Below, piece after piece: positions 12,079 through 54,720 of a stretch of 64,000 bases of DNA. Made by a program: the position numbers and the translations under genes. How positions within the stretch are numbered: position 1 is the stretch's first letter; each line of letters opens with the position of its first letter. The notes beneath the pieces are model-generated. The model saw only the letters and a list, made by a program, of their open reading frames with translations, did not search any database and was not told the origin of the DNA. The stretch is from positions 88,536,001 to 88,600,000 of the forward strand of contig OX597818.1 of the NCBI GenBank assembly GCA_951406725.2. The letters are read 5' to 3'. This DNA is from Octopus vulgaris. Taxonomy: Eukaryota.

Positions 12079-12099
12079 CATACATACATATACATATAT

Positions 12100-12334
12100 A
12101 AAATTATAAAAATAAGGATAAGATCAATATTTAAATACCGATCTTATCAGGTGGCCAGCATGAGAATGAAACCCATAAAAGGTAATAATTATTATTAAAA
12201 TTATAATTTAGGTTATCTAAGAGATACCACCACGCGTGAAATAGCAGCTAAAACTTGACTAAAATTCCTAATTCAAATTCCTAATAATGGAAATCGATGC
12301 TGACATGGGAATCCGCGAAAGCCACGTGACCGAA

Positions 12335-12335: not shown

Positions 12336-12394
<59 letters not shown>

Positions 12395-12628
12395 GAGGAT
12401 AAAATCGTTAATTTAAAAATAAAATAACGATTTTATCAAGTGGTCAGCATGGAAAAAAAAACCTTCAAAGGTAATAATTATTAAAATTATAAATTAGGGT
12501 ATCTACGAGATACTACCATGCTGAAAATAGTAGCTATGATCTGACTCTAAAACCACTTTAATTGTCCATATATCAACACGGAGAGGAAACAAAGAGACGA
12601 GATGAAACTAGTAAAAAATTACTGGATA

Positions 12629-12686
12629 ATTCTAGATCCGGATTTCTGACTTTGCATTTATGAATGCTTTGCCTCGTCAGTAGAAT
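12629..12686 (-). ncRNA. Type I hammerhead ribozyme motif (left arm of palindrome)
   Basis: Reverse complement of 13562-13619. Confidence 0.75.
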
Positions 12687-13561
12687 ACACACAGAAGATA
12701 AGCATAAATACATATATATATATAAATACAACATACGAATACTTACATATACGAACGTATACCCACATATATATGCACGTATGCATCATGACCAGTTCAA
12801 AATGCCCGCCGTTTAATTCCATGTGAGATATGGTCAAAATATCGCCGCAGTAAACAGTGACGAAATAAATTTAAATTTAAATAAATAAGGATAAGATAGT
12901 TAATTTTAAAATAAAATAACGATTTTATCAAGTGGTCAGCATGGAAAAAAATAACCTTCAAAGGTAATAATTATTAAAATTATAAATTGGAGTATCTACG
13001 AGATACCACCATGCTGAAAATAGCAGCCATGATCTGACTCGAAAACCATTTTAATTGTCCATATATCAACACGGAGAGAAAAAAAGAGACAAGATGAAAC
13101 TAGTAAAAAATTAATTAGATCTAGAATTATCCAGTAATTTTTTACTAGTTTCATCTTGTCTCTTTTTTTCTCTCCGTGTTGATATATGGACAATTAAAAT
13201 GGTTTTCGAGTCAGATCATGGCTGCTATTTTCAGCATGGTGGTATCTCGTAGATACTCCAATTTATAATTTTAATAATTATTACCTTTGAAGGTTATTTT
13301 TTTCCATGTTGACCACTTGATAAAATCGTTATTTTATTTTAAAATTAACTATCTTATCCTTATTTATTTAAATTTAAATTTATTTCGTCACTGTTTACTG
13401 CGGCGATATTTTGACCATATCTCACATGGAATTAAACGGCGGGCATTTTGAACTGGTCATGATGCATACGTGCATATATATGTGGGTATACGTTCGTATA
13501 TGTAAGTATTCGTATGTTGTATTTATATATATATATGTATTTATGCTTATCTTCTGTGTGT

Positions 13562-13619
13562 ATTCTACTGACGAGGCAAAGCATTCATAAATGCAAAGTC
13601 AGAAATCCGGATCTAGAAT
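13562..13619 (+). ncRNA. Type I hammerhead ribozyme motif (right arm of palindrome)
   Basis: ATTCTA-CTGACGA-GGC AAA GCATT CATA AATGC AAA GTC-A-GAAA-TCCGGA-TC/TAGAAT. Stem I is 6 bp, stem II is bipartite, stem III is palindromic and predicted cleavage is after C13613. There is one extra A before GAAA. Confidence 0.75.
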
Positions 13620-13842
13620 TATCCAGTAATTTTTTACTAGTTTCATCTCGTCTCTTTGTTTCCTCTCCGTGTTGATATATGGACAATTAAAGTGGTTTTA
13701 GAGTCAGATCATAGCTACTATTTTCAGCATGGTAGTATCTCGTAGATACCCTAATTTATAATTTTAATAATTATTACCTTTGAAGGTTTTTTTTTCCATG
13801 CTGACCACTTGATAAAATCGTTATTTTATTTTTAAATTAACG

Positions 13843-13919
<77 letters not shown>

Positions 13920-14604: not shown

Positions 14605-15325
14605 CAGGGTGGGGAAGCAAAATTTACAATATTTTGAGGCAGGGATTGAAAGACAGTGTATGACCAATCAATTTATTGAAATTCATGATAATAGAAAATG
14701 TTTTTATTCTATGTGTCGTCCTTCTTTTTCAATAACTGCCTTCACACGCTTCCTGAAACTTGCACCAGGGTTCCTCAAATATTAGGGAGACAACTTCTCC
14801 CATTCTTCTTTAATAGTATCTTTAAGAGAGTCGACATTGCTGTGTGATGTTCTATTGGTAGCATGTTCTAAAACGCCCCAAATAGCATAATCCAGAGGGT
14901 TCAGATCTGGGCTAGAAGGCGGCCATAAACACGATTCCAAAGAATTGCTAAAGTTGGATTTGCCGAAATCTTGTACTTTTTTAGCTGTGTGGGCTGGAGC
15001 ACCATCCTGTGTCCAAAAATAATTACCATCTGGGTAGTTTGCTTTAAGCCATGGCAATACCTGGTATCTCAGAGTTTTGTAGTAAGTATTAACATTGATC
15101 TTTTCATCAGCTTTGTAGAATTTTATAGGCATTTTCTTTCCATCGGAAGCCACAACACTAAAAGCCATAACTTGAGCAGGATGTTTTGCTTTGAATGTCC
15201 CCTTAACCTCAGCTGTCGAGTTTGCGATAAATCTGTCATTTCCGCAGTTCAGAACCGCATCGACAGTGAAGATCTTTTCATCTGAAAAAATCGTTACAAT
15301 GGAGGACTTTTACTTGAACCATGTA
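14605..15325 (-). mobile_element. Tc1/mariner DD37D (maT-type) transposon relic, 5'-truncated
   Basis: In-frame IFSDEKIF...QDGAPAH...WPPSSPDLNPLDY with 37 residues between the 2nd and 3rd D; premature stop at 14782; terminus TA|CAGGGTG at 14603-14611. Confidence 0.9.
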
Positions 15326-18833: not shown

Positions 18834-19977
18834 AACAGGCAAAGGAATATCTAAGTGAATTCCGAATACAACCAATTTCGGAATTAGAGATAGACATACA
18901 AGAAACAAGCACAGAAAAAGCTAAGCGCATGAAAACCCGTGCCAAAACTGCGGCCTTAGATATTCTGAATAATAAATGGCAAGAAAAACCTCTCTATGGC
19001 AAATACCCAAAGAGAGCGAATAATGCAGATATTGACAAAGCCCTGACCCATCAATGGCTAATGGCTTCTGGCCTAAAATCTGAAACAGGGGTTTATCATA
19101 GCAGCTCAAGATCAATGCCGACCAACAAGAAACTACCAGGCCAACATATTAAAGAACGGCAGTAGCCCAACATGTCGTGTATGCAGGCAACAAAATGAAA
19201 CCATTGATCATGTTGTCTCCAAATGCAGTCTTCTAGCGCCTACAGAGTACCTCAACAGGCATGATAAAGCTGCACAATATATTCACTGGGTAATTTGCAA
19301 AAACCTGGATTTGCCCCATGAAAAAAACTGGTGGGAACACAATCCACCTCCAGTGCTTGAAAATGACCACATCTCACTCCTCTGGAACTTCACCATTCAA
19401 ACTGACAGGAAGATAGATGCAAATAGGCCAGACATCATATTGAAAGACTTCAGACAAAGAACATGCCACCTCATTGATATGACTGTCCCAATCGATATAA
19501 ACGTATCTGTCAAGACCTACCAAAAACTGAGCAAATATAAAGATCTTGAAATAGAAATCAGCAAAATGTGGAAGCTGAAGACTAAAACAATACCTGTTGT
19601 CATAGGTGCCCTGGGAATGATAGCGAAAGGGACTAATTGCTACCTAACTCAGATACCAGGAAACCCCAAAATGGCAGAAATTCAAAAGATAGTGCTCATG
19701 GGAACTGCTCATATCCTACGCAAAATACTCTCTATGTAATCCCAAGGTTTAAAACAAACTTTTTTAAAATTTATTTATTTATTTATTTTACTTTATTTTA
19801 TTTCATTTTATTTATTTATTTTTTTTATTTTATTTTTATGTATTAGACATTCACTAGTACAACACCAAAAAAAAAAACCCCAAATATATGGCACAGAACT
19901 TCCTACCTGTTGTCAATTGAGGTCTCTGGGTGAGACTTGGAGCCAACTTGTACTGACATAAAGCAAAAGTCAAACAG
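18834..19977 (+). mobile_element. Dong/R4-clade RLE non-LTR retrotransposon, 5'-truncated and frameshifted, inserted in (TAA)n
   Basis: CRVC..ETIDHVVSKC zinc knuckle, YLNRHD, NRPDIIL...IDMTVP...KLSKY...PVVIGALG endonuclease motifs; stop at 19739; 3' UTR ends in (AAT)n. Dong elements are known to target TAA repeats. Confidence 0.9.
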
Positions 19978-48098: not shown

Positions 48099-49496
48099 TT
48101 GGGTCATCCCATAAATAATGCTGCTTTTTCAATTGCATGAACTAAAAGTCGGCGGGGGACGGGATAAATTACCTGAATCAATTTGCTATAAAAGCAGGTA
48201 GTAATTTTACCTTGTTATTCTTGTTTTGAAGAGTGCAGTTCGATTTTAACAGTTATTTTGTCAAAGCTATAATTGAAGTGACAAAGGAGTATATTCGGCA
48301 TATTTTACTTTATGAGTTCAATAAAGGCAACAACGCTATGGAAAGTGCGAGGAATATTAATGCAGTATATGGGGATCGGACAATAAGCGTAAGCCAGTGT
48401 CAACAAGGGTTCCAGAAATTCCGTGCCGGAAACTACAGCCTAGAAGACGAGTCTCGTCCTAGAAGATCTGTAGAGCTCGACGAAGACGTCCTACAAACAC
48501 TGGAGGAACAAAATCCTATGGTAACTGTTGAGGAACTAGCAGAGAAGCTTAGATTTGGTCATTCAACAATTCATCGACGCCTGCGTGCCATTGGAAAATT
48601 GAGTCAATGGGTTTCTCACAAAATTTACAAGTCTAATCGCGCGCAGAGAGTGAATGTGTGCTCTTCTTTGCTGTCACGTCATGAATGAACCTTTTTTTTT
48701 TATTTTTGGAACGAATAGTGACTGGTGACGAGAAATGGGTTCTCTATAAAAATGTCAAGCACCGAAGACGGTAGGGAAAGGAGAAAGACCGGCACCGCCA
48801 GGCTAAAGAAGGTCTTCACTCACGTAAGGTGTAATCTGTTTGCTGGGATGAGAAATGGGTTCTCTAAAAAAATGTCAAGCGCCGAAGACAGTTGGTAGGG
48901 AAAGGAGAAAAACCGACACCCCCAAGGCTAAAGAAGGTCTTCACCCACGTAAGGTGTTGTAATCTGTTTGCTGGGATATGAAAGGTTTAGTCCACTTTGA
49001 ACTTTAAAACCCGAACCAAACGATAACAAAAGAGATCTATTGCGAGCAGCTTGAGCGGCTTAAGTCAGCACAGAAGGAAAACGACCATCTTCGGTTTGAG
49101 GACGAAAGGTGTTCTTCCATCAGGTTAATGCTCGGCCACATACAACGAGGATGACGTTCCAAAGGCTGGAGCAGTTTGAATGGGAAACGATACCCTGCCA
49201 ACCATGTTTGCCGGACATTACCTCATCTGATGATCATTTATCCACAGTCTTCAAAATTATTTGGACGGAAAAAATATGAATTCTGTAGACGAGGTCAGAA
49301 AAGTACTAGAGGAGTATTTTTCGTCACACACAAGTGAATATAGAAAGAGGGGCCTTGCAAGTCTCCCAGATAGATAGAAAAGCATTGTAAAAAATGAAGG
49401 AGAGTATATTTTAGATTATAAAAAGGACTTAGTTGATCTTATTTTTTTAACATAAAAGATGTATAAGAAAATCGCATTATTTATGGGATGACCCAA
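48099..49496 (+). mobile_element. Full-length mariner (DD34D type) with decayed transposase
   Basis: Perfect 23 bp TIR TTGGGTCATCCCATAAATAATGC with TA on both sides; motifs WVSHKI (WVPHEL), TGDEKW, NARPHT and PDITSSD (PDLAPSD); stops, frameshifts and a ~120 bp internal duplication. Confidence 0.95.
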
Positions 49497-53596: not shown

Positions 53597-54720
53597 TAGG
53601 GGAAAGTAAGAAAAATAAACGAAAATGCACATTGTAAATCAAAAGAAGTAAAGGCTTTTTATGAAAAGTAACGAAAGATATATACAATTAGATGAACTGA
53701 GGTAGGAATAAAAGTAATAAAAGTCATTATTGTGAATTGTTAAAGAGATTCAAGCGTACATATTTCGAAAGTTACTAATCATTGCTTTGAATACAACTAT
53801 TCATTGCTTTGAATGCACACCGATTAATGAACAATGTCAGGTCTAATAGTTCCTGAGAAAAAATATTATTTGTAAGGGAGATAAGTACTTCTGGATTTGG
53901 TGCAATTATGTTAGATATAGAATTGTAAAGTGAATGGTGTAAAGGATGTATGGGGGTTACGTCGGGCGAAATGCTTAGCGGTATTTCGTCTGCCGTTACG
54001 TTGTGAGTTCAAATTCCACCGAGGTCGACTTTGCCTTTCATCCTTTCGGGGTCGATAATTAAGTACCAGTTAAGCACTGGGGTCGATATAATCGACTTAT
54101 ACCTATGTCTGTCCATGTTTGTCCCCTCTATGTTCAGCTTGTGGGTAATAAAGAAATAGGTATTATTTGAAAGGTTAGTAGTGTTCTGTATTATGTTATG
54201 TGTTCATATTTTGTTGGGGAAGATATTTATTGATGAAAGTTGCCTCTTTATTCATTCTTTGTTGCATTGAGGTGTTCTGTGAACATTGATAGAAGGGGAA
54301 AATTGGGAAATTAGGATTAAGATTCCTAGCACACCTTTCTATGTGTTCACTAACCTGTAAGTGTCTGTATTGTGGGTGGCGGATTTGTTCTTTGTGGAGA
54401 GTGGTTCTTCGACGGAGTGATATTCCTGGTTAGCCAATATAGTTGTTACCACATCCTAAGCATGTCATGGCATAGATTAGATTTTCCGAGGCACAGGCGA
54501 AATTTGATTTGATCTTAAAAATTTCACCTTGTTTAAAGTGGAATTCTGAACCCTCCAAAAGTTGGGGGCATGTTCCACAGTTAGGTCGACCACATCTTTT
54601 CACTTTTGGCTCTGTTGTTAATGGATATAGTCCTAAATTCAGTGAGGATACCCTGTTTGTAAAACATATCAGCACAGACAACGATCCTCACCGGGTTCAA
54701 GAGAAAAGTCTTACCTTGTA
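53597..54720 (-). mobile_element. Penelope-like element relic (GIY-YIG endonuclease plus 3' UTR), interrupted by a SINE
   Basis: RCGRPNCGTC..SNFACASENLIYAMTCLGCGNNYIG*PGISLRRRTTLHKEQIRHP..QVSEHIERC: Cys-rich linker, xIY...YIG motif and downstream R..H. The 3' end abuts a TA/TATG microsatellite. Confidence 0.85.
53958..54158 (+). mobile_element. SINE family 2
   Basis: GGGCGAAATGCTTAGCGGTATTTCG...GCCTTTCATCCTTTCGGGGTCGATAA...GTGGGTAATAAAGAAATA. Confidence 0.9.

What the first reader, a model, noticed from the sequence alone, without database searches (positions are those of the whole stretch)
12402..13846. Near-perfect 1.45 kb palindrome carrying two outward-facing hammerheads
Seen: 712 bp arms with about one mismatch, no indels, a 21 bp spacer and (TA)n on both outer sides. 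The ribozyme-sense strands run outward from the centre. The ~230 bp direct repeats inside each arm differ at roughly 15 positions, so the inversion is much younger than the tandem repeat. Established: Penelope-like insertions often carry partial tandem and inverted terminal repeats. Inference: a recent fold-back insertion, and a potential cruciform or long dsRNA (ADAR/siRNA substrate) if transcribed. A long-read fold-back artefact is possible.
Basis: partly seen in the sequence, partly recalled or inferred. Interest (0 to 1): 0.75.

Follow-up and report, generated by a model that had tools for sequence, protein, structure and literature searches.

The report
Old ribozyme repeat, recently mirror-duplicated
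This 1.45-kb palindrome is an old copy of a common non-coding jumping repeat that carries a predicted self-cutting RNA motif, and its mirror-image half was likely added much later by a local DNA fold-back copying error rather than when the repeat was first inserted.

Summary
The palindrome is in the assembly as described: 712-bp arms, one mismatch, 21-bp spacer, (TA)n flanks. Each arm is 1.5 units of a ~495-nt non-coding repeat with a hammerhead-like motif (536 exact motif hits in the genome), a Penelope-type retrozyme. Head-to-head insertions are routine in this family (51 of 97 sampled loci), and the scan noted them before on other DNA of this genome.

This copy breaks the family pattern. 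Both arms share about 14 differences from consensus, and the marker combinations tested occur nowhere else in the assembly. Yet the arms differ at 1 of 712 sites, against a median of 5% in sister loci. Both ends are 'long', whereas 33 of 38 sister loci have one long and one short end. One other sequencing run holds a contig with (TA)n joined directly to the centre, i.e. the left arm missing.

Best reading (0.5): an old single insertion, recently duplicated by a fold-back template switch between self-complementary TA tracts. No listed contig from five runs showed the palindromic junction, so an assembly artefact stays open (0.15). Cleavage and transcription are unshown.

The parts
12337..12391 (.). 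Left (TA)n tract, the insertion target and the proposed landing site of the second template switch
   Evidence: role inferred
12392..12401 (-). Family-typical 'long' 3' end, present on the left arm only (about 11 nt missing from the right arm)
12402..13113 (-). Left arm: unit positions 14-492 plus 1-233; proposed new copy
   Evidence: 'new' is inferred
12629..12686 (-). Hammerhead-like type I motif of the left arm; predicted cut between 12635 and 12634
13114..13134 (+). 21-nt spacer: 4-nt filler (13114-13117), the last 4 nt of a unit (13118-13121) and unit positions 1-13. Unique in the assembly; the proposed fold-back loop
13122..13613 (+). One full 492-nt unit, from predicted cut site to predicted cut site (consensus 496 nt); no stop-free frame over 70 codons in the palindrome
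13135..13846 (+). Right arm; proposed original copy; carries the single derived base (13309) and the shortened end
13562..13619 (+). Hammerhead-like type I motif: 6-bp stem I, CUGACGA core, 3+5-bp stem II, extra A before GAAA, short palindromic stem III; predicted cut between 13613 and 13614
13614..13846 (+). Partial second unit (pLTR-like direct repeat)
13846..13917 (.). Right (TA)n tract
12096..12250 (-). Separate, older 5'-truncated copy of the same family (75-80% identity), beside a (TACA)n tract; not part of the palindrome

Best explanation
The palindrome consists of two near-identical 1.5-unit copies of an abundant non-coding hammerhead-motif repeat in a TA microsatellite; the repeat was likely pasted in long ago as a single copy by Penelope-type enzymes, and the left arm was likely added recently by a DNA fold-back template switch. 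Proposed steps (inferred): (1) A Penelope RT/endonuclease acting in trans inserted one 1.5-mer into (TA)n, leaving TA on both sides. (2) The copy aged in place, and its two direct repeats drifted about 5-6% apart. (3) A nascent bottom strand, stalled or broken on entering the left TA tract, folded back on a 2-nt TA microhomology with a 21-nt loop. It copied its own arm out to the far (TA)n. Because (TA)n is its own complement, it could then re-anneal to the left tract and go on. (4) The right arm later took one substitution and lost 11 nt between two TTTAT repeats, or the new arm was copied from the other homologue. The result mimics the family's usual head-to-head insertions and is probably neutral debris.
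For: Shown: arms differ at 1/712 sites while the direct repeats differ at 12/234, so the arms are at least about 6.5-fold younger. In the 12 other loci with both comparisons the rates are alike: arms 55/1171, direct repeats 85/1178. In 34 other head-to-head pairs the median arm difference is 5.3%; the only identical pair (L133, 0/93) also equals consensus there, whereas ours is 1/575 with 14-15 differences from consensus. Two marker combinations occur exactly only in these two arms (one further hit with 1 mismatch). The best other copies are 92% identical over the unit and 96% over its middle (40 candidates scored each). Ends are long+long here; of 38 other pairs with both ends classifiable, 33 are long+short, 4 short+short, 1 long+long. 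The junction 23-mer is unique in the assembly at up to 1 mismatch. Run X2 holds it exactly (34-nt contig, 13113-13146) and shows a contig with 18 nt of (TA)n directly before 13112, the predicted single-arm allele. A locus-specific double variant lies on an exact 59-nt contig in X1, so the aged copy is seen in read data. Fold-back inverted duplications with 2-8-bp inverted microhomology are known (PMC3907307, passages).
Against: The X2 contig cannot be placed: it ends in (TA)n, so it could be a different, unassembled locus. Half of the family's sampled loci are head-to-head by ordinary insertion, so the prior favours an insertion-time origin. The model needs both arm differences to fall on the right arm, or copying from the homologue. 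The priming microhomology is only 2 nt. No listed contig of X1-X5 bridges left arm and spacer (tables are cut, X1 and X2 were read only 76-80%). Spacers in the human cases are 766 bp or longer, not 21 bp.
Confidence: 0.5

Rival explanations
1. Fresh Penelope-driven insertion: an aged 1.5-mer elsewhere was transcribed, and its RNA was copied into both strands of this TA site, or the cDNA folded back and primed its own second strand.
For: Head-to-head structure is the family norm (51 of 97 loci). Self-priming at inverted junctions has been proposed for Penelope elements (PMC3846280, passages). A Penelope protein cleaves and extends both strands in vitro (PMC11167929, parts 1-2). The shortened right end would need no later deletion.
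Against: No source copy is in the assembly, although the aged copy's markers appear in runs of three different samples (X1, X2, X3). The long+short rule is broken (33 of 38).
Confidence: 0.15
2. Assembly artefact: the true locus is the single arm, and a fold-back read or a polishing step produced the mirror arm.
For: The only independent junction evidence shows the single-arm form (X2). No listed contig bridges arm and spacer in five runs. Fold-back reads occur in Nanopore and PacBio data (PMC12870357, abstract).
Against: The two flanks are different unique sequences, not mirrored. The left arm has the consensus base at the mismatch and about 11 family-typical bases absent from the right arm, so it is not a copy of the assembled right arm. 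Other kb-scale head-to-head arrays are assembled with distinct arms.
Confidence: 0.15
3. Local re-insertion: a Penelope RT copied this locus's own read-through RNA into the TA tract at its own 5' end.
For: The left arm has textbook target-primed geometry: it starts at the family's long end on (TA)n and is 5'-truncated at unit position 14. It fits the single-arm contig in X2. Intact 781-aa RT+GIY-YIG ORFs exist in the genome.
Against: It needs an RNA from one locus, among hundreds to thousands, to return to its own flank. No matching autonomous partner was found in 26 GIY-YIG stretches examined. The internal hammerhead must have stayed uncut.
Confidence: 0.1
4. An old two-armed insertion whose arms are kept alike, or one rewritten from the other, by gene conversion or hairpin-templated repair.
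For: Long arms and a 21-bp spacer favour intra-strand pairing (general knowledge). The right arm ends at a TTTAT microhomology, as a re-synthesised arm might. An earlier unchecked note proposes this for another palindrome (e1-8666025).
Against: Sister pairs with short or no spacer are not homogenised (L069 20/207, L093 7/206). A 2.4-kb zero-spacer array on C10 has arms no more alike than its direct repeats (98.2% vs 98.3-98.4%). The X2 contig would have to be a clean one-arm deletion.
Confidence: 0.1

Closest known systems
Metazoan non-LTR retrozymes (PMC7229834: introduction and passages read; bioRxiv 10.64898/2026.07.22.740005: part 1 of 5 read)
   Same: Non-coding, AT-rich unit with a type I hammerhead motif, in partial tandem, dispersed in many copies; proposed to be non-autonomous derivatives of Penelope-like elements.
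   Different: The unit is about 495 nt against about 300 nt. Each arm has one complete motif, so it fails the preprint's two-consecutive-motif criterion for an 'active' retrozyme. The core has an extra A before GAAA. Circular RNA and cleavage are not shown.
Inverted pLTR insertions of endonuclease-positive Penelope-like elements (PMC3846280, PMC8557442 passages; PMC4209133 parts 1-2; PMC11167929 parts 1-2)
   Same: Partial tandem plus an adjacent inverted 5'-truncated copy; (TA)n targets; a 'tail' on one end only in sister loci; opposite-strand motif pairs (100-700 bp apart in PMC4209133, 888 bp here).
   Different: No ORF. The family tail is about 95 nt against 30-40 nt. In this copy both ends are long and the arms are far younger than the element, which a one-step insertion from a template with identical repeats does not give.
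Fold-back inverted duplications (PMC3907307 passages; ODIRA, PMC4689423 abstract)
   Same: A single-copy spacer bounded by short inverted microhomology, with a recent inverted duplicate beside it.
   Different: 0.7 kb, interstitial, no deletion, 21-bp spacer, closed by a proposed second switch at self-complementary (TA)n rather than by a dicentric or a plasmid intermediate.

Membership tests
Type I hammerhead ribozyme | CUGANGA and GAAA boxes with a UH cleavage triplet | tested here: met
   (536 exact pattern hits, control 0)
Type I hammerhead ribozyme | Stem I closing the motif | tested here: met
   6 of 6 pairs in 48 of 56 motif copies; the search pattern fixed the 3' strand, so this is conservation, not covariation
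Type I hammerhead ribozyme | Pair 10.1-11.1 directly before G12 | tested here: not met
   One extra base between the GGC/GUC stem and GAAA: A in 54 of 56, G in 2. No Rfam hammerhead hit. The canonical numbering is recalled and checked against PMC4209133.
Type I hammerhead ribozyme | Short palindromic stem III (dimer type) | tested here: met
   8-nt self-complementary stretch, duplex -10.9 kcal/mol
Type I hammerhead ribozyme | Self-cleavage | not testable with these tools
   The active monomer fold scores -2.9 kcal/mol against -9.9 for an alternative fold that pairs the core
Non-LTR retrozyme | Non-coding, dispersed, tandem unit with a type I motif | tested here: met
Non-LTR retrozyme | Two consecutive complete motifs in tandem (preprint's 'active' criterion) | tested here: not met
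   One complete motif per arm; the inner cut site has only 4 nt of upstream motif
Non-LTR retrozyme | Circular RNA expression | not testable with these tools
   Only assembled contigs were offered
Penelope-mobilised element | Partial tandem, inverted 5'-truncated partner, fixed 3' ends with a one-sided tail, (TA)n target | tested here: met
   Met for the family: 51 of 97 loci head-to-head, 33 of 38 long+short. This copy departs from the end rule.
Penelope-mobilised element | Shared pLTR with an autonomous RT+GIY-YIG element | tested here: inconclusive
   No match in 20 of 148 listed GIY-YIG loci plus 6 longer stretches, one of which overlaps a listed locus
Fold-back inverted duplication | Single-copy spacer with inverted microhomology and a pre-duplication allele | tested here: inconclusive
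   21-nt spacer and 2-nt microhomology seen; candidate allele in X2 cannot be placed

The most novel reading that the evidence does not exclude
Any element that sits between two (TA)n tracts can turn into a palindrome long after insertion, by a double template switch or by a Penelope enzyme re-inserting the locus's own RNA at its own 5' end. Some 'Penelope inverted repeats' would then be secondary and still segregating, and this locus would be a caught case with both alleles available for study.
Probability: 0.4. Interest if true: 0.5.

Novelty: new member of a known kind. Interest (0 to 1): 0.3.

Why it matters
The element and its head-to-head layout are known kinds, and the scan has noted them repeatedly in this genome. 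The one point of interest is timing. If the mirror arm arose after insertion, arm identity cannot be used to date such insertions, and not every inverted Penelope structure reports the insertion mechanism. One PCR or a few long reads would settle it. The family's conserved extra A in the hammerhead core is a cheap biochemical test. Three full-text searches listed no paper evidently on either point; the key variant paper (PMC5785218) was not held, so it may already cover the core variant.

Tried and rejected
Rfam: no family at gathering score in the window. At E<=5 there were 43 hits below gathering score, mostly hairpin-shaped miRNA models, none a hammerhead; rejected as chance matches to a perfect hairpin.

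Expression: no RNA holder listed; no conclusion drawn.

Reads: only short contigs were available. No listed piece bridged left arm and spacer in X1-X5, and several locus-specific variants had no exact cover in X1 and X2. The tables are cut and contigs drop rare variants, so this is not evidence of absence. Contigs with the right-arm base at 13309 are also explained by locus L054, so they were not used. An empty-site test was not possible, because the TA tracts are longer than the contig word size.

Autonomous partner: none found; the 781-aa Penelope-like family shows no similarity to the repeat.

A peak of 5' ends at the predicted cut site: not seen. 29 of 30 listed matches continue upstream through the motif and one stops at the site.

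Two haplotypes in opposite orientation mis-joined by the assembler: rejected, because only 2 nt of overlap exist at the junction.

MITE reading: rejected, because the arms are retrozyme units with ragged 5' ends across the family.

The palindrome scan of 864 kb used hard masking and cut some structures, so it gives only a rough rate: 8 rows, one of them this locus.

The earlier-findings look-ups by sequence and by nearby place returned nothing. Supplements of papers were not read.

Full report
1. Observation. The inverted repeat is as described: arms 12402-13113 and 13135-13846, 712 nt, one mismatch (12939/13309), 21-nt spacer, between (TA)n tracts at 12337-12391 and 13846-13917. Each arm holds two direct repeats that differ at 12 substitutions and 3 gap events in 237 columns. 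The left arm has about 11 more element bases at its outer end. Of 10 hammerhead core-pattern hits in the window, only the two in the arms have a perfect 6-bp stem I; their cores start at 13568 (+) and 12680 (-). Rfam finds no hammerhead.

2. The repeat. From predicted cut site to cut site the unit is 492 nt (13122-13613); a consensus from fetched copies is 496 nt. The right arm starts 4 nt before one predicted cut site and runs about 1.5 units. No stop-free frame exceeds 70 codons. The window lies on contig C5 of a 2.8-Gb genome, probably an octopus (my inference from genome size and microsatellite load; earlier notes say the same). The first look found 2626 candidates, of which 40 were scored. 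An exact motif pattern hits 536 places and its control hits 0. In 56 motif copies stem I is complete in 48, stem II starts GGC/GUC in 39, and an extra base precedes GAAA in all (A in 54, G in 2). Stem III is short and self-complementary, as described for dimer-type motifs of Penelope-like elements (PMC4209133, parts 1-2 read). That paper's extra base lies at the 5' side of stem II. The 3'-side extra A was not found in one search, and PMC5785218 was not held. Cleavage is untested; the active monomer fold scores -2.9 kcal/mol against -9.9 for an alternative.

3. The family's insertion habit. Of 97 distinct loci (chosen by similarity or motif, so not a random sample), 51 are head-to-head, this one included. 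Copies end at two fixed points, near unit positions 150 and 245, on (TA)n. Of the 50 other pairs, 33 are long+short, 4 short+short, 1 long+long, and 12 have an end that could not be classed. This matches the published layout of endonuclease-positive Penelope-like elements: partial tandem, adjacent inverted truncated copy, tail at one end, microsatellite targets (PMC8557442 and PMC3846280, passages). It also fits both-strand extension from two internal start sites in vitro (PMC11167929, parts 1-2). Retrozymes as non-autonomous Penelope derivatives are argued in bioRxiv 10.64898/2026.07.22.740005 (part 1 of 5) and described in PMC7229834 (introduction and passages). No autonomous partner was found in 20 of 148 listed GIY-YIG loci and 6 longer stretches, so mobilisation by Penelope enzymes is inferred from the footprint. 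Earlier unchecked notes of the scan describe the same layout and end rule elsewhere in this genome. I had seen the two end points, before reading them.

4. What is unusual here. (a) The arms differ at 1 of 575 comparable columns, yet each differs from consensus at 14-15. Most of these differences are rare among about 70 other pieces, and two marker combinations occur exactly only in these arms. The best other copies are 92% (whole unit) and 96% (middle part) identical. (b) In 34 other pairs the median arm difference is 5.3%, and the one identical pair also equals consensus. In the 12 other loci with both comparisons, arms (55/1171) and direct repeats (85/1178) are about equally aged, and taking the best register biases the arm figure down. 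Here the figures are 1/535 and 11/210. The arms are at least about 6.5-fold younger than the direct repeats. (c) Both ends are long. (d) The junction 23-mer is unique in the assembly. Run X2 holds an exact 34-nt contig over 13113-13146 and a contig with 18 nt of (TA)n directly before 13112, which is the sequence expected if the left arm is absent. X1 holds an exact 59-nt contig over a locus-specific double variant.

5. Mechanism. The simplest account is an old single 1.5-mer between two TA tracts, duplicated recently by a fold-back. A nascent bottom strand ending in the first TA of the left tract pairs with a TA 21 nt back, copies its own arm to the far (TA)n, and re-anneals to the left tract because (TA)n is self-complementary. 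The ages, the uniqueness and the X2 contig are shown; the template switches are inferred. Fold-back duplications with 2-8-bp inverted microhomology are known from human cases, though with much larger spacers (PMC3907307, passages; PMC4689423, abstract). Against this reading: the X2 contig ends in TA and cannot be placed; head-to-head layouts arise at insertion in half the sampled family; both arm differences fall on the right arm; and no listed contig of five runs bridges the left arm and spacer.

6. Rivals. A fresh insertion from a source missing in the assembly (0.15) lacks its source and breaks the end rule. An artefact (0.15) fits the read-side blank and known fold-back reads (PMC12870357, abstract), but not the unmirrored flanks or the extra information in the left arm. 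Local re-insertion of the locus's own RNA (0.1) fits the geometry but needs an unlikely return. Conversion (0.1) is not seen in sister pairs or in a 2.4-kb zero-spacer array.

7. Verdict. This is a new member of a known kind: a Penelope-type retrozyme copy in an inverted layout, probably neutral. No function, transcription or editing is shown. A repeat-annotation paper on octopus has no occurrence of 'ribozyme' or 'palindrom' in its main text (PMC13282606, passages; supplements not seen). The twist, a mirror arm much younger than the element with a candidate ancestral allele, is modest but directly testable. Interest 0.3.

Noticed in passing
G000:C10 about 40118650-40122120 (L227-L228): Young head-to-head array of about 592-bp units (about 4 against 2), with a 2.4-kb palindromic core at 98.2% identity, next to a Penelope-like GIY-YIG fragment. 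Used here only as a control.
   Followed up: partly
L119-L121, e.g. L120:1937-4279 (-): A Penelope-like family with intact 781-aa RT+GIY-YIG ORFs at many places; probably recently active, not similar to this repeat.
   Followed up: partly
L013:2291-2838, L021:3194-3420, L086, L090, L107, L124, L145, L151: Other palindromes at 95-98% identity, mostly with (TA)n on one side only and tight centres, in the flanks of fetched loci; probably head-to-head stubs of other families.
   Followed up: no
window 54208-54618 (-): Fragment of a Penelope-like endonuclease region, 55% identical to the 781-aa protein.
   Followed up: partly
window 14785-15309 (-), 48230-48685 (+), 19077-19736 (+): Transposon debris: a DDE_3 domain, a Mos1-type HTH, and a weak zf-RVT match below cut-off. 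No host gene was evident among the long open frames, but exons were not searched for.
   Followed up: partly
family motifs listed: A more diverged subfamily (about 80% identical to the consensus) has an extra A on both sides of stem II, while the subfamily here keeps only the 3' one. That A also lets the core pair with the stem II 3' strand in an inactive fold, a possible off-switch.
   Followed up: partly
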